DNA from: Candidatus Asbonarchaeum danakilense
GTDB taxonomy: Archaea; Nanohalarchaeota; Nanosalinia; Nanosalinales; Nanoanaerosalinaceae
Assembly (NCBI GenBank): GCA_034190465.1
Contig: JAXINV010000056.1
Location: 8,744-26,633, forward strand
Reading direction: 5' to 3'
DNA: 17,890 bases
The position numbers were made by a program, and so were the translations under genes. The notes below the pieces were generated by a model. It had not been told where the DNA came from. It was given only the letters and a program-made list of their open reading frames with translations, and made no database searches. This document shows, in pieces, positions 1,959 to 17,890 of the stretch. Each line of letters opens with the position of its first letter. The stretch's first letter is position 1.

Positions 1959-2110
1959 CGCCCGAACCCCGGTGAACGCACGGTGATGTCCGGCCACGGC
2001 CTGCTTCAGGAACCACAGTTCAGGCCCGTCCGGGCGAACGGATGTTAAGCGTTCCCGGCAGACGCCCCTATTCTTTTTATGCTCGGAGCGGATACACGGG
2101 CAGAATCACG

Positions 2111-3193
2111 ATGCGAGACGAAGTATACAGCGGGAGCGTGGAGTACGTCCAGCTCCTGGACGCGGACGGCGACCTTGACGGCGAACTGCCTGACGGACTC
2201 GAGGAGGACGACCTGAAGGAGATGTACCAGGAGATGGTCACCGCCCGCGAGTTCGACGAACGGGCGGTCAAGCTCCAGCGGAGGGGCGACATGGGAACGT
2301 ATGCACCGCTGAAAGGCCAGGAAGCGGCACAGGTCGGGTCGGCCTACGCGATGGACGACGATGACTGGATGGTGCCGGCCTACCGGGAGGGCGCCAGCTA
2401 CTTCACACGCGGCGTCCCGATGGAGAAACTGCTGCAGTACTGGGGCGGCGACGAACGCGGCGCGGAGATGGACGGCGAGGACGAGAACCTGCCGCCGTCG
2501 GTCCCGGTCGGCAGCCAGGTGATCCACGGCGCCGGTATAGCGATGAGCATGAAGCGCCACGGCGACGACAAGGCGACACTGACCTACCTCGGCGACGGCG
2601 CGACCAGCGAGGGCGCGTTCCACAGCGGGATGAACTGGGCCGGTTCGTTCGACGTGCCGGCTGTCTTCTTCGTCCAGAACAACCAGTACGCGATCTCGGT
2701 GCCGCGCGACGAGCAGACCGGAGCGGACACTATCGCACAGAAGGCGCTGGCCTACGGCATGGACGGCGTCCAGGTCGACGGCAACGACCCGGTAGCGGTC
2801 TGGCAGGTGACGAACGAGGCGCTGGAACGTGCCCGGGAGGACGGCGAGCCGACGCTGATCGAGGCGGTGACGTACCGCCGCGGCGACCACACCACGGCCG
2901 ACGACGCCTCCAAGTACCGGGACGAGGACGAGGTCGAGGAATGGCGGGAGAAGGACCCGATCGACCGGCTGGAAGCCTTCCTCGCGGACCAGGGCGTGCC
3001 GGACGACTGGTTCGAGGAGCAGCAGGAGCTGGCTGAGGAACAGGTCAGCGACGCGATCGATGCGTATCAGTCCATGGAGGATCAGGACCTGGAGGACCTG
3101 TTCGACCACCACTACGCGGAGACCCCGCCCGAGCTGGAGCGGCAGAAACAGGAACTGCTTGCGACGGAAGACGAGACAGGAGGTGATGCCTGA
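2111..3193 (+). CDS. pdhA: Pyruvate/2-oxoacid dehydrogenase E1 alpha subunit
   Basis: GQEAAQVG, TPP-binding GDGATSEG…NN, DGND and HTTADD motifs. Start set at ATG 2111, downstream of TTTTTATG at 2074-2081. Confidence 0.93.
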   Translation: MRDEVYSGSVEYVQLLDADGDLDGELPDGLEEDDLKEMYQEMVTAREFDERAVKLQRRGDMGTYAPLKGQEAAQVGSAYAMDDDDWMVPAYREGASYFTRGVPMEKLLQYWGGDERGAEMDGEDENLPPSVPVGSQVIHGAGIAMSMKRHGDDKATLTYLGDGATSEGAFHSGMNWAGSFDVPAVFFVQNNQYAISVPRDEQTGADTIAQKALAYGMDGVQVDGNDPVAVWQVTNEALERAREDGEPTLIEAVTYRRGDHTTADDASKYRDEDEVEEWREKDPIDRLEAFLADQGVPDDWFEEQQELAEEQVSDAIDAYQSMEDQDLEDLFDHHYAETPPELERQKQELLATEDETGGDA

Positions 3194-4227
3194 TGAGCGG
3201 CAAGACGATGGTCGAGGCGCTGAACCGTGCCCTGGAGGAAGAGATGGAGCGCGACGAGGACGTCGTGCTGATGGGCGAGGACGTCGGTGAGGACGGCGGC
3301 GTGTTCCGCGTCACCGACGGCCTGGACGACCAGTTCAACGAGGACTGGGACGATCCCTCGGAGCGGCTGGAGCATGAACGTGTCATCGACACGCCACTGG
3401 ACGAGGCAGGCATCGTCGGCACCGCGCTGGGCATGTCGCTGTACGGTGACAGGCCTGTCACGGAGATCCAGTTCTCCGGCTTCATGCTGCCGGCGATGAA
3501 CCAGCTGATCGGCCACGTCGCCAGGTACCGGAACCGGACCCGGGGCAAGTACGAGCCCTCGATGGTGGTCCGGGCACCGTACGGCGGCGGGATCGAGGCA
3601 CCGGAGCACCATTCCGAGTCGGATGAGACGTTGTACGCTCACACGCCGGGGCTCAAGGTCGCGGTGCCGTCCACGCCGGAGGACGCGTACGGCATGATGA
3701 AGGAGGCGGTCCGTGACGACGACCCGGTGGTCTTCCTGGAGCCGAAGAAGATCTACCGCAGCGCCCGGGAGGAGCTTCCCGATCCTGACGAGGACTATAC
3801 CGTTGGGCTGGGCGAGGCGGACGTCAAGAAGGAGGGTGACGACGTGACGGTCGTCTCTTGGGGCGCGACCCTGCAGGACACGCTGGAGGCGGTGGATGAG
3901 CTCGAGGACGATGACATCTACGCGGAAGTGGTCGACCTGCGGTCAATCAGCCCGATTGACTTCGAGACGATCGAGGAGAGCTACAAGAAGACCGGGAAGC
4001 TGGTCGTGGCGCACGAGGCCCCGCAGACGTGTGGTGTCGGGGCGGAGATCTCCTCGCGTATCACGGAGGACGACCACGATCTGCTGTACCTGGAGGCGCC
4101 GATCAAGCGGGTCACCGGGTACGATACCACGATGCCGCTGTACGAGAACGAGGACGAGTACCTGCCGGACAGCGACGACATCGCGGAGGCCATCAGAGAG
4201 GTCGACGAGTACGGCTTCGAGGGCTGA
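3193..4227 (+). CDS. pdhB: Pyruvate/2-oxoacid dehydrogenase E1 beta subunit
   Basis: GEDVG..GGVFRVT, DTPLDE, EIQF, EHHSES, FLEPK and VDLRS motifs. TGATG stop/start overlap with pdhA and GGAGGTGA SD upstream. Confidence 0.94.
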   Translation: MSGKTMVEALNRALEEEMERDEDVVLMGEDVGEDGGVFRVTDGLDDQFNEDWDDPSERLEHERVIDTPLDEAGIVGTALGMSLYGDRPVTEIQFSGFMLPAMNQLIGHVARYRNRTRGKYEPSMVVRAPYGGGIEAPEHHSESDETLYAHTPGLKVAVPSTPEDAYGMMKEAVRDDDPVVFLEPKKIYRSAREELPDPDEDYTVGLGEADVKKEGDDVTVVSWGATLQDTLEAVDELEDDDIYAEVVDLRSISPIDFETIEESYKKTGKLVVAHEAPQTCGVGAEISSRITEDDHDLLYLEAPIKRVTGYDTTMPLYENEDEYLPDSDDIAEAIREVDEYGFEG

Positions 4228-10793: not shown

Positions 10794-10985
10794 TCAAACG
10801 CGCTGAACGTTGACTGCCTTGGGTCCTCTGTCGCCTTCTTCGGTCTCGAATTCGACCTCGTCGCCCTCCTGGGCGGATTCGGCGTCCAGTTCACTGATGT
10901 GGAAGAAGACGTCTTCTCCTCCTTCGTCAGGCTGGATAAACCCGTAGTTCTTCATGTCGTGGAAGAACTTGACTGTGCCTTTCAT
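10794..10985 (-). CDS. csp: Cold-shock protein (CSD)
   Basis: MKGTVKFF, RNP1 NYGFI, RNP2 DVFFH and GPKAVNV. SD GGAGGTG upstream, TTTATAAA at 11026-11033, T-tract terminator near 10740-10748. Confidence 0.96.
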   Translation of the reverse strand: MKGTVKFFHDMKNYGFIQPDEGGEDVFFHISELDAESAQEGDEVEFETEEGDRGPKAVNVQRV

Positions 10986-11055
10986 AATGAAACACCTCCT
11001 GATATCCCTGCATGCGGTGGACACCTTTATAAATCTCGCAGGAAGAGCTTTGTAC

Positions 11056-11223
11056 GAGGGGCGGTTGATTCTGTCTCCTTAAGGTGTCGAGCCGGGGGCC
11101 CCTACCACTGATTCAAGGTGGAAATGTCCCCTGTAAGCGGACAGTAAGACACACGGAAGAACTCCGCTCGTCGCACCGTCTGGACAAGATGCGGGGTCCG
11201 AAACGGCCCCAGACCGCCCCCTC
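11056..11223 (+). ncRNA. Putative structured non-coding RNA (~170 nt), family unknown
   Basis: 5' GGGGCGGTT (11058-11066) pairs with 3' GACCGCCCC (11212-11220), enclosing several internal stems. It begins about 23 nt after palindromic TTTATAAA, and G-U pairs favour the + strand. Confidence 0.6.
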
Positions 11224-11280
11224 ATCCTTCTCCACCTGTCACGACACCATTTTTAAGCCTGGGATGTGTCCCATGTACAT

Positions 11281-12522
11281 ATGCTCGACCGGCTCCGCGA
11301 TCTCCTCAGCCCGGAACCAGAGACGGTGACCCCGGCGGAGGCGCTCGATTTCTTGGATGAACACAAGGAACGGGAGCTCGATGCCGCACGTGAACGCGCC
11401 GACGAGCTCCGCTCCCGTGTCATGGACCGGCTGGACACGCTCGACGAACGGCTGGACGAGCTCGAAGCATACACCGACGACGAGGCCCGTGTCGAGGACG
11501 TGACGACCAATGTCGCGGAGCGCAGGAAACGGCTGATCGACCAGTTCGACCCTGTCGACGATCTCACCGCCTTCGCCGACGACCTCGACGAGCTGGCGGA
11601 ACAGCTCTCAACGGTGAAACAGAAGGAGAAGATGGTGCTCGACCAGGTCGGTGCACCGGCGGAGGACGCGTTCAGCACGATCCGTGAGCTTTCCTCCACG
11701 GTCGACGACCTCCAGGACTTCGTGGACACGGACCACCAGGTCATCCAGCGGCGGGACCGGCTCACCTCACTCCTGGACAGGCTGGAGCGGCTGCATGAGG
11801 AACGGGACGAGCTGGATGACGCACTTGACGCGGTCGACCTCACCACGCCACGGGACGAGCTTGAGGAGGTCACGGAACAGCTGGAAGCGCTGGACGACGA
11901 TCCGGAACAGCACAGGAAGGAAGAGCTCCAGTCCCGGATCGAGGAGCTGGAGGAGCAACGGGACCGGTTGCAGCACAGCATCGAGGAGGCGGCGGCCTCC
12001 ATGGAACGCGGTCTGAAGAAGATCAGGTACCAGATGGAGCACGGTGATATCGATGCAGCGGAGGAGACCCGGGAGGTCCTCAACGCGATCCAGGAACAGG
12101 GCCGCCCGTCCGACATCGCGGCGGACACTGTCGCCGGGGCTGTCGAACGGGCGGAACAGGCGATCGATGAGGTCGACCTGGGGGAACGGCAGGTGGAACG
12201 GTTCCAGGACGCTGCCGACACGATGCACGACCTTGATTCGATCCGTGACGATATCGAGGACGTCGAGGAGGAGATACGGGAGCTTGAACAGGAACTTGAC
12301 GACCTTTCCATCGATGAGCGGCGGCAGGAGCTGGAGGAGCAACGGGAGGATGTCTTCGAGACCATCGAGGAACGGGAACATGAGATCGAACAGCTCCAGC
12401 ACCGGGTCACGGTCAAGGACCAGGCGATCACTGATACACTGGACACGATCGAGGACCTCCTGGACGAGACGGTGCGGGCCCCGGTCACCGTGACCCGGGA
12501 CGACGATGCGGGACAAGATTGA
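11281..12522 (+). CDS. Long acidic coiled-coil protein
   Basis: Heptad-rich helical sequence with no Walker motifs; TTTTTAAG at 11250-11257 supports ATG 11281. Confidence 0.8.
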   Translation: MLDRLRDLLSPEPETVTPAEALDFLDEHKERELDAARERADELRSRVMDRLDTLDERLDELEAYTDDEARVEDVTTNVAERRKRLIDQFDPVDDLTAFADDLDELAEQLSTVKQKEKMVLDQVGAPAEDAFSTIRELSSTVDDLQDFVDTDHQVIQRRDRLTSLLDRLERLHEERDELDDALDAVDLTTPRDELEEVTEQLEALDDDPEQHRKEELQSRIEELEEQRDRLQHSIEEAAASMERGLKKIRYQMEHGDIDAAEETREVLNAIQEQGRPSDIAADTVAGAVERAEQAIDEVDLGERQVERFQDAADTMHDLDSIRDDIEDVEEEIRELEQELDDLSIDERRQELEEQREDVFETIEEREHEIEQLQHRVTVKDQAITDTLDTIEDLLDETVRAPVTVTRDDDAGQD

Positions 12523-15069: not shown

Positions 15070-15105
15070 CCCCGGTTTTGAACGCTGGCTGGAAATGACA
15101 GTGGT

Positions 15106-15360
15106 ATGGCGTACACGGTCCTCATCCCAGAACCTGTGGAACGCGAGATAGCTGGCTGGGACGATGAACGACGCGACACGTTCTTCACAAAGGTCGAGAA
15201 GCTGGAACGATACCCGAAAAAGTTCGGTAAACCGCTCCGGGGACCGCTGTCAGGGCTCTGGGAGCTGTACTTCGAGAACAGTTTCCGCATCCTGTACAGC
15301 GTCGATGACGAGAACCGGAACGTCTACGTCAAAGAGATACGGCACAAAGACGACTTCTAA
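15106..15360 (+). CDS. RelE/ParE family toxin
   Basis: 84 aa; GKPLRGPLSGLWEL..FRILYSVD…V..IRHKD pattern typical of RelE. Confidence 0.9.
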   Translation: MAYTVLIPEPVEREIAGWDDERRDTFFTKVEKLERYPKKFGKPLRGPLSGLWELYFENSFRILYSVDDENRNVYVKEIRHKDDF

Positions 15361-15521
15361 CCGAGCTCTTTCCTGAGCTGGTCCAGCGTCGTGGTGCGGC
15401 CTTCCTCGATCGCCTGCTCGGACGCCTCTATCATCTGGAGGGCGTCATCGTCTCCGAGGATCGCGATCGTGCGCTTCAACCCGTCGTACTCCTCCCTGGA
15501 AACATGGACCGTGTCGCTCAT
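15357..15521 (-). CDS. Short antitoxin (RelB/YefM C-terminal-like), 54 aa, absent from the ORF track
   Basis: Manual translation MSDTVHVSREEYDGLKRTIAILGDDDALQMIEASEQAIEEGRTTTLDQLRKELG*. TTTTAAA box at 15550-15556; its stop overlaps the relE stop. Confidence 0.85.
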   Translation of the reverse strand: MSDTVHVSREEYDGLKRTIAILGDDDALQMIEASEQAIEEGRTTTLDQLRKELG

Positions 15522-15566
15522 GGCTGTCCAGAGATAGGCACGGCACCGATTTAAAACCCCTGCCCC

Positions 15567-15597
15567 GTTCCACCACCGGTCGACGATGGAACAAGCA
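15567..15597. repeat. TA-array palindrome copy A
   Basis: GTTCCACCACCGGTCGACGATGGAACAAGCA, identical to the cores of copies B and C. Confidence 0.9.
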
Positions 15598-15631
15598 GGA
15601 CCACGGCGGGATACGAAGGACGCGGATGACG

Positions 15632-15997
15632 TTATGATGCAAGCAAGTCGCGGGCTTTTTCGATGAACGTTTCAGCGTCTTCGATCCGTTGTTCCGCCTC
15701 TTCCTCTGAGAACTCGGGAGCGATCTCGTAGTCGGCTTCCTCCCGTTCTTCTTCGGCAAGTGTGAGCGCCTTGCCGAGCGAGTCGGCGATCCTGCCGGAC
15801 GCAACGAATTCCTTCCCGATCATCCTGATGAGCCCTGCATGGGTCTTGGCAGTGATGTCCTCGGATTCCAGTAATGCTTTCGCCGCGTGATACATCCCGT
15901 AGTAGGCACGGGAGATCGCATCCGCGTAGAACCCGGCCTCGCAGAGGGTCCGTGCCGCCTCGATCTTCTCGTCAGCCCAGTCCAGGCGTTCATCCAT
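15632..15997 (-). CDS. HEPN domain protein (COG1895-like), partner of MNT
   Basis: SRAYYGMYHAAKALL, KTHAG and R-EEAD-Y motifs; overlaps the upstream MNT by 8 nt. Confidence 0.9.
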   Translation of the reverse strand: MDERLDWADEKIEAARTLCEAGFYADAISRAYYGMYHAAKALLESEDITAKTHAGLIRMIGKEFVASGRIADSLGKALTLAEEEREEADYEIAPEFSEEEAEQRIEDAETFIEKARDLLAS

Positions 15998-16322
15998 AGA
16001 CCTTCATCTCCTCCTGGATACTGTCAAGCAGGCTGCCGTTCATCCGTTCCATCCGCGCCAGCTGATCAGTGCTGATGACCTTCGGCGAGATGTAGATATC
16101 GGTGGCGAGCATGATGTCGAAGGCGATTCCGACGATGTCCTGTTTCACGCTCTTATCATCCACGACGATGAGGACATCGACATCAGAGTCCTCACCATGA
16201 TCGCCTCGGGCCACGGAACCGAACAGGATGAGTTTCTCAACACGGTCACCGAACCTGTCCATGACCTGCTCCCGGAACCTGTCGAACGCTTCCTCGTGCC
16301 GGTCCCTCTCGTCCAGCGCCAT
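15990..16322 (-). CDS. Minimal nucleotidyltransferase (MNT) antitoxin 1
   Basis: LFGSVARGDHGEDSDVDV (GSx10DxD). Confidence 0.92.
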   Translation of the reverse strand: MALDERDRHEEAFDRFREQVMDRFGDRVEKLILFGSVARGDHGEDSDVDVLIVVDDKSVKQDIVGIAFDIMLATDIYISPKVISTDQLARMERMNGSLLDSIQEEMKVYG

Positions 16323-16390
16323 GCCCTACATTTGGTCGCACCAGTATTTCAAAGACCTTGTTCCACCACCGGTCGACGATGGAACAAGCA
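16297..16390. repeat. 94-bp exact duplication (first MNT codons, promoter and palindrome copy B)
   Basis: Identical to 17110-17203; contains the 32-bp IR at 16357-16388 and the TTTGAAATA box at 16345-16353. Confidence 0.92.
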
Positions 16391-16450
16391 GGGACGCCGG
16401 CGGTGACGGCAGTGGGAACTGGACGGAGGAACGCTGGAAGATGGAACAAG
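16379..16450. repeat. 72-bp repeat bounded by ATGGAACAAG direct repeats
   Basis: 68/72 identical to 17705-17776 by manual comparison. Confidence 0.88.
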
Positions 16451-16521
16451 GGACAGTGTGACGACACGAAGATGTAGGGCCCGGTTTGATGCTTGGAAGG
16501 AGAAAGGGTTTTCCAGCGTGT

Positions 16522-16854
16522 TCACTCGTCTTCCAGGAACTGTCCGATCCGGTTACGCAGTTCAGGCAGGTCCTGCTGGACCGTTGCCCAGACAACATCG
16601 TTGTCGACATCGAAGTAGCCGTGGATGAGCCGATCACGCATCCCGGCGATGTCCTGCCACGGGACACTGGTCAGCCGGTCACGCGTTCTGTCGGACAGCT
16701 GTTTCGCTGCCTCACCCATCACTTCGAACTGGCGGACAACGGCGTCCTGTGTCTTCTGATCGGCTGCAAAGTCCTCTCTGGACATGTCGTCGGTGTAGTC
16801 CAGGATCCTGTCGATCGCGTCACGGATGTGCTCCAGATAGGCCTGGTCCCTCAT
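16522..16854 (-). CDS. HepT-like HEPN RNase toxin (DUF86)
   Basis: DAVVRQFEVMGEA and PW..IAGMRDRLIHGYF (Rx4HxY); ATGA overlap with MNT2. Confidence 0.93.
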   Translation of the reverse strand: MRDQAYLEHIRDAIDRILDYTDDMSREDFAADQKTQDAVVRQFEVMGEAAKQLSDRTRDRLTSVPWQDIAGMRDRLIHGYFDVDNDVVWATVQQDLPELRNRIGQFLEDE

Positions 16855-17135
16855 GCCAGCACCTCTTTCTCCTCATCGACCCGGGACCGGATCTTCGGAC
16901 TGAGTTCGTCCTCGGTGACGAGGTCAACAGGACGACCGAGTTCGTCCTCGAGCTCGCGTTCGATCCGTGCCATGTCCAGCAACGTCTTCGACTCGTCGAA
17001 CGAGACGAGGATATCGATATCGCTGTCAGCCGTCTCCTCATCACGGACATACGAGCCGAACAGCTCGACCGAGGCGGCACCCTCCGCTGTCAGCTTCTCC
17101 ACAATCACCTGCCGGTCCCTCTCGTCCAGCGCCAT
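16851..17135 (-). CDS. MntA-like MNT antitoxin 2
   Basis: LFGSYVRDEETADSDIDILV and LGRPVDLVT motifs. Confidence 0.93.
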   Translation of the reverse strand: MALDERDRQVIVEKLTAEGAASVELFGSYVRDEETADSDIDILVSFDESKTLLDMARIERELEDELGRPVDLVTEDELSPKIRSRVDEEKEVLA

Positions 17136-17203
17136 GCCCTACATTTGGTCGCACCAGTATTTCAAAGACCTTGTTCCACCACCGGTCGACGATGGAACAA
17201 GCA
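17110..17203. repeat. 94-bp exact duplication, second copy (palindrome copy C at 17170-17201)
   Basis: Identical to 16297-16390. Confidence 0.92.
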
Positions 17204-17270
17204 AGGGACGACGATGGTGCGGGAGACGTCCAGGAGCTCGATCTGGACCGGCCGTCGCTTCCATGATACT

Positions 17271-17343
17271 TCAGGGACGTTCCTGGATGGCTGCTACGGC
17301 CTCACGGAGCTCCGGGAGCTCGTTCGTGACGGTGTCCCCTCAT
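17271..17343 (-). pseudogene. Internally deleted DUF86/HepT toxin remnant
   Basis: ATGA overlap with MNT3. ATG AGG is followed, out of frame, by DTVTNELPELREAVAAIQERP*, homologous to the C-terminus ATVQQDLPELRNRIGQF of 16522-16854. Confidence 0.8.
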
Positions 17344-17645
17344 ACCGCCTCGACATACTCGACCTCCTTGAGCACCCTGTCCTGGATGCTTTCCCTGACG
17401 GACTGCTCGGTCACGAGGTCGATATCGCGGTCGAACAGTTCCTCCAGGAACCGTTTCAGCTCCATGAAGTTAGCGAACGTCTTCTCCCCCTCCCTGAACC
17501 GGACAAGGATATCGATGTCACTGTCCTCCGTCGCCTCATCCCTGCTATAGGACCCGAACAGCCCAATCCTGTCGACACCGAGCTCATGGATACGGCCAGC
17601 ATTGCTGGCCAGTTCCTCATGGATGGCATCACGGGACAGTGACAT
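17340..17645 (-). CDS. MntA-like MNT antitoxin 3
   Basis: GLFGSYSRDEATEDSDIDILV and LF.R.IDLVT motifs; TTGAAATA box at 17668-17675. Confidence 0.93.
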   Translation of the reverse strand: MSLSRDAIHEELASNAGRIHELGVDRIGLFGSYSRDEATEDSDIDILVRFREGEKTFANFMELKRFLEELFDRDIDLVTEQSVRESIQDRVLKEVEYVEAV

Positions 17646-17704
17646 GGGCAGCTATTGGTCCAGACAGTATTTCAAGACAACGGTCATTCCGGCACGGGCG
17701 TTCA

Positions 17705-17778
17705 ATGGAACAAGCAGGGACGCCGGCGGTGACACCAGTGGGAACCGGACGGAGGAACGCTGGACGATGGAACAAGCA
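17705..17778. repeat. 72-bp repeat, second copy, with two ATGGAACAAGCA half-sites
   Basis: Matches 16379-16450; half-sites at 17705-17716 and 17767-17778. Confidence 0.88.
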
Positions 17779-17825
17779 GAGAGAGGAACGAACAAGGGGA
17801 GACACGGAGGAAGGATGTGGACAAC

Positions 17826-17860
17826 GGAAGGAAGAGAGAAAAGGAGAGAAGGGAGGAGGG
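17826..17860 (-). terminator. Pyrimidine-rich tract, probable terminator of a - strand gene beyond the window
   Basis: Purine-only run on the + strand; a - strand TAA lies at 17866-17868. Confidence 0.4.
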
Positions 17861-17890
17861 CGGAGTTACCAACCCTCCCCCCGGGAAGGT

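What the first reader, a model, noticed from the sequence alone, without database searches (positions are those of the whole stretch)
11056..11223. Unannotated, highly structured ~170-nt RNA divergent from the cold-shock gene
Seen: a closing helix GGGGCGGUU/GACCGCCCC (11058-66/11212-20) encloses hairpins CCACU/GGUGG (11105-11121), UGUCC/GGACA (11125-11143), CGUCU/AGAUG (11177-11191) and GGGGUC-CGAAAC-GGCCCC (11193-11210). Longer-range pairs GUGUC/GACAC (11084-88/11148-52) and CGAGC/GCUCG (11088-92/11166-70) would cross as a pseudoknot or act as alternatives. G-U pairs favour the + strand. The 5' end lies about 23 nt after the palindromic TTTATAAA that also serves csp, and a pyrimidine tract follows. 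No credible ORF covers it, and I cannot match it to tRNA, 5S, SRP, RNase P or a known riboswitch. Inference: a novel ncRNA or ribozyme-like RNA, or alternatively a structured csp leader transcribed from the box at 11250-11257.
Basis: partly seen in the sequence, partly recalled or inferred. Interest (0 to 1): 0.78.

Follow-up and report, generated by a model that had tools for sequence, protein, structure and literature searches.

The report
Undescribed structured RNA of salt-loving nanoarchaea
This is a real, stand-alone gene for a tightly folded RNA of about 170 letters, kept in single copy by two groups of tiny salt-loving symbiotic archaea and matching no catalogued RNA family, so it may be an unknown RNA machine whose job is still to be found.

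Summary
Confirmed as a conserved non-coding RNA gene at about 11056-11223 (+). It has no Rfam match, and the genome encodes SRP, RNase P and 5S RNA elsewhere. A covariance model finds one copy in 15 of 70 genomes of its phylum (0 of 50 in the largest family) and in 8 of 22 genomes of one Aenigmatarchaeota order. Covariation supports seven helices and two three-way junctions: 23 of 42 pairs change on both sides. Invariant unpaired bases cluster in a sarcin-ricin-like (A)GUA/GAA arm capped by ACACACG; a second hairpin ends in a T-loop-like cap. The csp link is local (2 of 25 loci). A TATA-like box upstream, a pyrimidine tract downstream and nine different downstream neighbours in nine loci point to an independent, trans-acting RNA. 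Best reading (about 0.45): a compact RNA that presents the invariant arm to a universal partner such as the translation machinery, in the manner of raiA or OLE. No expression data, no strictly co-occurring protein, no reverse transcriptase found.

The parts
11056..11223 (+). Structured ncRNA gene; ends inferred from the closing helix, true 5' and 3' ends not mapped
   Evidence: Single-copy homologues in 15 of 70 and 8 of 22 genomes; covariation
11026..11033 (.). Palindromic TATA-like box TTTATAAA; probable promoter of the RNA, possibly shared with csp
   Evidence: Sequence; a TATA-like word 35-52 nt upstream of the P1 core in 20 of 23 homologues, loose pattern, no shuffle control
11058..11066 (+). 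P1 5' strand, pairs with 11212-11220; core GGUY/RACC 11063-66/11212-15, followed by a G11067.A11211 juxtaposition
   Evidence: Core 100% paired in 21 sequences, one pair with a double change
11069..11076 (+). P2 5' strand, pairs with 11182-11190 around the invariant bulged A11186
   Evidence: 11070-11189 U-A 11 / C-G 12; 11073-11185 G-C 16 / A-U 7
11083..11090 (+). P3 5' strand, pairs with 11171-11177, one bulge at 11088
   Evidence: 11085-11175 U-A 15 / C-G 8; 11090-11171 A-U 19 / G-C 2 / C-G 2
11091..11134 (+). P4 (11091-99/11126-34), internal loop and P5 hairpin (11105-09/11117-21) with a variable loop
   Evidence: 7 of 9 and 4 of 4 pairs with double changes
11137..11167 (+). P6 (11137-41/11163-67) and its 21-nt cap
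   Evidence: 11141-11163 A-U 15 / C-G 5 / G-C 1; not recovered by RNAalifold on 7 sequences
11143..11161 (+). Invariant arm: (A/U/G)GUA...GAA sarcin-ricin-like (bulged-G) signature, purine swap 11148/11157, cap ACACACG
   Evidence: 14 positions invariant in 23 of 23; 11148-11157 A.G 19 / G.A 4; motif assignment inferred from sequence, AGUA signature as in PMC13085918
11193..11210 (+). P7 hairpin with T-loop-like cap 11199-11204
   Evidence: 11199-11203 G.G 18 / C.A 5, AA 11201-02 invariant; T-loop geometry inferred from recalled motif rules
11222..11240 (+). Pyrimidine-rich tract, probable archaeal terminator
   Evidence: 72% pyrimidine over 25 nt here, 56-96% in 23 homologues; no control run
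10794..10985 (-). Cold-shock domain gene (63 aa), divergent neighbour only; not part of the element
   Evidence: Pfam CSD 1.5e-22; beside the RNA in 2 of 25 loci
11250..11257 (+). TTTTTAAG box, probable promoter of the downstream 413-aa acidic protein gene (11281-12522); not part of the element
   Evidence: Sequence; position 24 nt before the ATG; function inferred

Best explanation
An independently transcribed, trans-acting RNA of about 170-200 nt that works through its three-dimensional shape rather than by coding or by regulating its neighbour. Shown by comparison: seven helices, two three-way junctions (P1/P2/P7 and P3/P4/P6), a variable P4-P5 arm, and an invariant P6 arm. Inferred: P3 and P4 stack (no linker bases), P6 folds back along P3-P2, and its tip meets the T-loop-like cap of P7, giving a compact rod. 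Inferred: the bulged-G arm with the ACACACG cap is the recognition surface for a partner present in all these archaea, most likely a ribosome-associated or other core RNA-binding protein, and the complex serves in stress or dormancy, as proposed for the bacterial orphan RNAs raiA and OLE.
For: Single copy in every positive genome. Between the two phyla it is 56-61% identical, about as constrained as SRP RNA of the same genome pairs, 58-62%. 23 of 42 pairs change on both sides; slid controls pair 30-41% against 95%; on an alignment made without the structure 91% and 16 pairs. Of 18 invariant unpaired bases, 14 lie in the P6 arm and 2 in the P7 cap; the two non-standard swaps (11148/11157, 11199/11203) are what a fixed 3D fold gives. 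Own promoter-like and terminator-like signals; nine different downstream protein families in nine loci, three on the opposite strand. None of five candidate proteins tracks it strictly, which fits a universal partner.
Against: No transcript, partner or phenotype is shown. The tip-to-T-loop contact has no covariation behind it because the bases are invariant. The covariation structure of this copy is 6.8 kcal/mol above the predicted minimum (-61.6 against -68.4), and RNAalifold on 7 sequences did not recover P6. A partner in core machinery does not explain why the RNA is not found in 50 genomes of the largest family, including complete ones. The invariant loop has no complement in the two rRNA stretches tested. 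The partner screen used two positive and two negative genomes only.
Confidence: 0.45

Rival explanations
1. A catalytic RNA of a new class: the invariant P6 arm and the junctions form an active site that acts on itself or on another RNA.
For: 47 invariant columns among 23 sequences that are 55-99% identical; compact multi-junction fold; stand-alone gene.
Against: No Rfam ribozyme match down to E 10 or in six homologous loci down to E 5. No pseudoknot supported. 5' and 3' flanks vary and show no conserved cleavage or splice boundary; not found in viruses or plasmids.
Confidence: 0.15
2. A ligand- or ion-sensing RNA acting in trans (for K+, Na+, Mg2+ or a nucleotide signal), part of the salt or anoxia adaptation of these symbionts.
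For: All named carriers belong to lineages described as halophilic (titles; PMC13195033 passages); riboswitch-like size and junction architecture.
Against: No expression platform or constant downstream gene. Not found in the largest halophilic family, 0 of 50. The habitat of the 14 negative genomes in the Aenigmatarchaeota order is not shown by the tool.
Confidence: 0.13
3. A base-pairing regulatory or guide RNA: the helices are a scaffold and GUAARACACACGG pairs with an mRNA, rRNA or tRNA target.
For: An invariant single-stranded stretch of 13-19 nt.
Against: The stretch carries the GUA/GAA signature and an internal purine swap, so most of it is probably self-paired; no complement in two rRNA stretches; the 12-nt complement occurs 1, 2, 0 and 0 times in four genomes, location not followed up.
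Confidence: 0.1
4. A template RNA for repeat DNA synthesis, as in DRT3, whose ncRNA uses 5'-ACACAC-3' in a loop.
For: Invariant ACACAC in a loop; DRT3 uses the same word (PMC13174585 passages).
Against: No RVT_1 match in 6 of 6 carrier genomes searched (completeness 69-93% where given); no RT gene beside any locus read; no (AC)5 or (GT)5 tract in two carrier genomes; stable single-copy inheritance, unlike a defence locus.
Confidence: 0.04
5. A cis-acting leader of csp or of the downstream gene, or a DNA-level element.
For: In this window it shares a palindromic TATA box with csp.
Against: csp flanks it in 2 of 25 loci; downstream genes differ and three of nine face it; G-U to A-C bias of 131 to 24 points to one RNA strand; single copy, no repeats.
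Confidence: 0.04

Closest known systems
raiA motif RNA (Rfam RF03072)
   Same: Stand-alone, about 200 nt, many invariant unpaired bases, an E-loop/sarcin-ricin module, function unresolved (PMC10861870, PMC11751092 passages; PMC13085918 section 6).
   Different: raiA has two covarying pseudoknots at its core and is described from Bacillota and Actinomycetota; this RNA shows no supported pseudoknot and RF03072 does not match its locus in 5 carrier genomes.
OLE RNA
   Same: Orphan structured RNA of extremophilic or anaerobic microbes that forms a ribonucleoprotein (PMC9723947, start of abstract in a listing).
   Different: About 600 nt and bacterial; no Rfam match here; no dedicated partner gene found.
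Archaeal SRP RNA (RF01857) and RNase P RNA (RF00373)
   Same: Single-copy archaeal RNA genes with own promoter; similar depth of conservation.
   Different: Both are encoded elsewhere in this genome and in other carriers; different topology; they persist in genomes that lack this RNA.
DRT3 ncRNA
   Same: Conserved 5'-ACACAC-3' in a loop (PMC13174585 passages).
   Different: DRT3 ncRNA lies downstream of two reverse transcriptase genes; none found in 6 carrier genomes.
Sarcin-ricin loop / bulged-G motif
   Same: AGUA on one strand and GAA on the other at the end of a helix.
   Different: A recurrent module found in many unrelated RNAs (22 loops listed in PMC13085918), so it gives no family membership; here the first base is A in 15, U in 6 and G in 2 of 23, and the cap is longer.

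Membership tests
Any Rfam 15 family | Match to a covariance model | tested here: not met
   No match over the element at E up to 10 in the window or at E up to 5 in six homologous loci
raiA motif RNA | RF03072 match | tested here: not met
   No match at the locus in 5 carrier genomes; best scores 11 and 8 bits elsewhere
raiA motif RNA | Two covarying pseudoknots | tested here: not met
   No standard-pair covariation crossing the nested helices among the top 45 column pairs
raiA motif RNA | Abundant independent transcript in stationary phase | not testable with these tools
   No RNA run listed
Archaeal SRP RNA | RF01857 match and being the genome's SRP gene | tested here: not met
   SRP is at G000:C3:18918-19188, 107.5 bits; also separate in 3 of 3 other carriers tested
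Archaeal RNase P RNA | RF00373 match and being the genome's RNase P gene | tested here: not met
   RNase P RNA is at G000:C18:1096-1430; separate copy in 2 of 3 other carriers tested
tRNA / tmRNA / 5S rRNA | Cloverleaf, tag frame or RF00001 match | tested here: not met
   ARAGORN 0 genes in the window; 5S on contigs C5 and C47
Riboswitch or other cis-acting leader | Constant position 5' of functionally related genes on the same strand | tested here: not met
   Nine families in nine loci, three on the opposite strand; csp in 2 of 25 loci
DRT3 system | ACACAC template in an ncRNA loop | tested here: met
   ACACAC invariant in 23 of 23
DRT3 system | Two adjacent reverse transcriptase genes | tested here: not met
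   RVT_1 absent from 6 of 6 carrier genomes searched; none are complete
Self-cleaving ribozyme | Site-specific cleavage in vitro | not testable with these tools
   Needs a bench assay
Bulged-G (sarcin-ricin) motif | AGUA/GAA strands at the end of a helix | tested here: inconclusive
   GUA and GAA invariant, first base A in 15 of 23; geometry not tested

The most novel reading that the evidence does not exclude
An ancient, previously unrecognised core RNA machine of DPANN archaea, either a new ribozyme or a ribosome- or translation-factor-binding RNA that mimics the sarcin-ricin arm, kept for as long and as tightly as SRP RNA in minimal genomes of two separately salt-adapted lineages.
Probability: 0.3. 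Interest if true: 0.9.

Novelty: categorically new. Interest (0 to 1): 0.7.

Why it matters
Genomes of 0.6-1.3 Mb have shed most dispensable genes, yet these keep a single-copy RNA with seven helices and some 47 invariant bases across two phyla. Few stand-alone, intricately folded RNAs of unknown function are described for archaea (own knowledge), and none matched here. Its size suits direct probing, cleavage assays and scaffolded cryo-EM, so its fold and activity can be tested at once. Its presence in two lineages that adapted to salt separately, and its absence from the best-studied nanohaloarchaeal family, makes it a marker for questions of DPANN phylogeny, gene exchange and lifestyle. The rating 'categorically new' refers to the RNA family and fold; its mechanism may still turn out to be of a known kind.

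Tried and rejected
Expression: no RNA holder listed for window 10950-11330; this is no evidence either way, and read laying was not used. Bacterial promoter/terminator scan: 0 sites, not suited to archaea. Viruses: 5 exact-pattern hits, all loop-only matches of at most 15 bits; a second pattern gave 0. Plasmids: 4 weak partial matches at E 0.5; phages none. In the scan of 185,579 representative genomes 37 of 58 pattern hits, including the records titled Woesearchaeota, Saccharibacteria and Moraniibacteriota, did not match beyond the loop. A phylum sample around the Woesearchaeota-titled genome: 0 of 151, with strict filters and no positive control in that call. A weak model hit in G240 (E 0.35-0.79) lies inside a long reading frame. 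Partner search: proteins shared by G000 and G070 but not G020 or G240 gave 55 and 36 rows; five were tested on 65 genomes (23 with the RNA, 42 without): archease 54 of 65; SMUBP-2-type helicase 12 of 23 and 4 of 42; DUF763 13 of 23 and 10 of 42; DUF4010 over cut-off 11 of 23 and 3 of 42; RNase HI-like 13 of 23 and 3 of 42. The enrichments may only reflect kinship and habitat. The reverse list, proteins only in the two negative genomes, gave 12 rows with no RNA-related candidate by my reading. A third positive genome could not be added, so the screen stays coarse. Literature: ten searches listed no paper describing this RNA; subscription papers are mostly not covered. A 266-nt nanohaloarchaeal intergenic RNA is named in PMC7002113 (passage); its sequence was not in the two supplementary files held as text, so identity with this RNA could not be checked.

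Full report
The observation. The stretch 11056-11223 lies between a cold-shock gene on the minus strand (10794-10985, Pfam CSD) and a 413-aa acidic protein on the plus strand (11281-12522). On its own the sequence folds only somewhat better than shuffles, and equally on both strands (z -1.85 and -1.89), so the single sequence proves little. Rfam has no match over it at E up to 10, ARAGORN finds no tRNA or tmRNA, and the genome carries SRP RNA, RNase P RNA and 5S rRNA on other contigs.

Homologues. BLAST over 61 related genomes gave 8 other genomes with one strong match each. A covariance model built from 12 sequences (R1) found one copy in 15 of 70 genomes of the phylum: this genome, 7 of 9 others in its family, 7 of 8 in a second family, and 0 of 50 in the largest family. 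An exact-pattern scan of 185,579 representative genomes gave 58 hits, of which 21 match the model at 86-183 bits and 37 match only the loop. The 21 are titled Nanohalarchaeota, Nanoanaerosalina, Nanohalalkaliarchaeum, Asbonarchaeaceae, uncultured archaeon, or, in 7 cases, Aenigmatarchaeota. In the Aenigmatarchaeota the RNA is confined: 6 of 151 in a phylum sample, 7 of 151 in a class sample, 8 of 22 in one order. One carrier record bears the prefix PWEA01, the lineage named Haloaenigmatarchaeaceae and described as separately salt-adapted (PMC13195033, passages). Scores are bimodal. Two single-contig genomes without it, one from the large family and one from the same Aenigmatarchaeota order, were scanned whole beside a positive control and gave nothing better than E 0.79; five near-complete genomes of the large family gave at best E 0.14. 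Metagenomes added 7 true matches among 10 hits, two of them new sequences. Five negatives among close kin are 61-93% complete, so their absence is not shown.

Structure. On 21 sequences aligned to the model, 95.3% of cells pair and 23 of 42 pairs change on both sides; slid controls pair 30-41%. That alignment leans to the structure, so I repeated the count on the 12-sequence MAFFT alignment: 91.2% and 16 pairs, with one of five measures (further pair types) not beyond shuffles. RNAalifold on a 7-sequence MAFFT alignment recovered P1, P2, P3, P4, P5 and P7 unaided but not P6; P6 rests on its own double changes (11141-11163: A-U 15, C-G 5, G-C 1). The fold is: P1 closes the ends; a three-way junction joins P1, P2 and P7; P2 leads through an internal loop, which tolerates a hairpin insertion in two genomes, to P3; a second three-way junction joins P3, P4 and P6; P4 carries the variable P5 hairpin. 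Among 23 distinct sequences 47 columns are invariant and 18 of these are unpaired, 14 in the P6 cap and 2 in the P7 cap. The P6 cap reads (A/U/G)GUAARACACACGGRWGAA. GUA and GAA are the signature of the sarcin-ricin or bulged-G motif (AGUA as typical sequence: PMC13085918, passages and section 6 part 1), and 11148 and 11157 swap A.G and G.A (19 and 4). In P7, 11199 and 11203 swap G.G and C.A (18 and 5) around GAA, which fits a T-loop by recalled rules. Some of this invariance is circular, because 9 of the 23 sequences (seven Aenigmatarchaeota, two metagenomic) were first found by the loop pattern; the others were found by BLAST or by the model alone, and one of these has U at 11156. The supported structure of this copy is not its energy minimum (-61.6 against -68.4 kcal/mol).

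Gene organisation. G-U cells outnumber A-C cells 131 to 24 on the + strand. A TATA-like word lies 35-52 nt upstream of the P1 core in 20 of 23 sequences, two of the three exceptions being cut by a contig end, and the next 25 nt downstream are 56-96% pyrimidine (loose pattern, no control). A csp gene flanks the element in 2 of 25 loci, both of one genus. Nine downstream genes from nine loci fall in nine Pfam families, three on the opposite strand. No reading frame is conserved. This is the pattern of an independent, trans-acting RNA gene. Expression is not shown; no RNA run was listed.

History. A tree of 23 RNAs separates the Aenigmatarchaeota copies from the nanohaloarchaeal ones at 94/94, short of the tool's star, and does not resolve the two nanohaloarchaeal families. 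Identity across the phyla is 56-61% for the RNA and 58-62% for SRP RNA of the same genome pairs. That argues against recent transfer and fits either old inheritance with many losses or an old exchange between salt-dwelling lineages; both figures are near saturation. The sister lineage Terrarchaeota and the likely hosts could be tested only by the exact pattern.

Mechanism. Shown: fold, invariant surface, independence from neighbours. Inferred: with no linker between P3 and P4 these stack, P6 folds back, and its tip can reach the P7 cap, which would give a compact body that displays the bulged-G arm. Such arms are common protein- and RNA-contact sites (own knowledge). No dedicated protein tracks the RNA among five candidates tested on 65 genomes, so I favour a partner in universal machinery, probably translation, and a role in stress or dormancy like that discussed for raiA (PMC10861870 and PMC11751092, passages) and OLE (listing only). 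I put this at 0.45. A new ribozyme (0.15), a trans-acting sensor (0.13) and a base-pairing RNA (0.10) remain open. The ACACAC word recalls the DRT3 template (PMC13174585, passages), but no reverse transcriptase was found in 6 carrier genomes.

Comparison and novelty. It works like an orphan stand-alone structured RNA of the raiA or OLE kind but is a member of neither. Ten literature searches listed no description; two further papers read in passages (PMC6704655; bioRxiv 10.64898/2026.09.15.751765) and PMC12510878 (passages) do not mention it in what I saw. PMC7002113 names a 266-nt nanohaloarchaeal intergenic RNA whose sequence I could not see. Verdict: a real, undescribed RNA family with strong structural evidence and an unproven function.

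Noticed in passing
window 15100-17890: A row of small toxin-antitoxin-like cassettes: a Gp49/RelE-like gene, HEPN plus nucleotidyltransferase, HepT-like plus nucleotidyltransferase, and a third nucleotidyltransferase. They are separated by a 33-nt repeat at 15567, 16360, 17173, 17686 and 17748, the first three 97-100% identical and about 800 nt apart; the repeat was found only on this contig. It looks like a cassette array with recombination sites.
   Followed up: partly
window 10794-10985; G000:C1:37575-37763; G000:C11:34486-34671: The genome has three cold-shock domain paralogues, 65-66% identical to the one beside the RNA.
   Followed up: no
L058 and L059 (G015, G027), between P2 and P3: One- and two-hairpin insertions (12 and 29 nt) in the P2-P3 internal loop; the second looks like a tandem duplication of the first, and marks a site that tolerates tags.
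   Followed up: no
L042:384-463 (G003): The one full-length homologue with upstream sequence but no TATA-like word at the usual distance; the upstream region may be rearranged.
   Followed up: no
L281 (G020:C1:3405-3813) and L279 (G070:C2:34357-34787): RNase P RNAs are long (about 410-430 nt) and in G020 score far below the Rfam cut-off (36.8 bits against 84).
   Followed up: no
window 2042-4227: E1 alpha and beta subunits of a 2-oxoacid dehydrogenase by my reading of the translations, with no E2 or E3 gene beside them in the window.
   Followed up: no
G236: Shares the SMUBP-2-type helicase and the RNase HI-like gene with the carriers but has no match to the RNA; it may be a carrier with an assembly gap or a real loss.
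   Followed up: no
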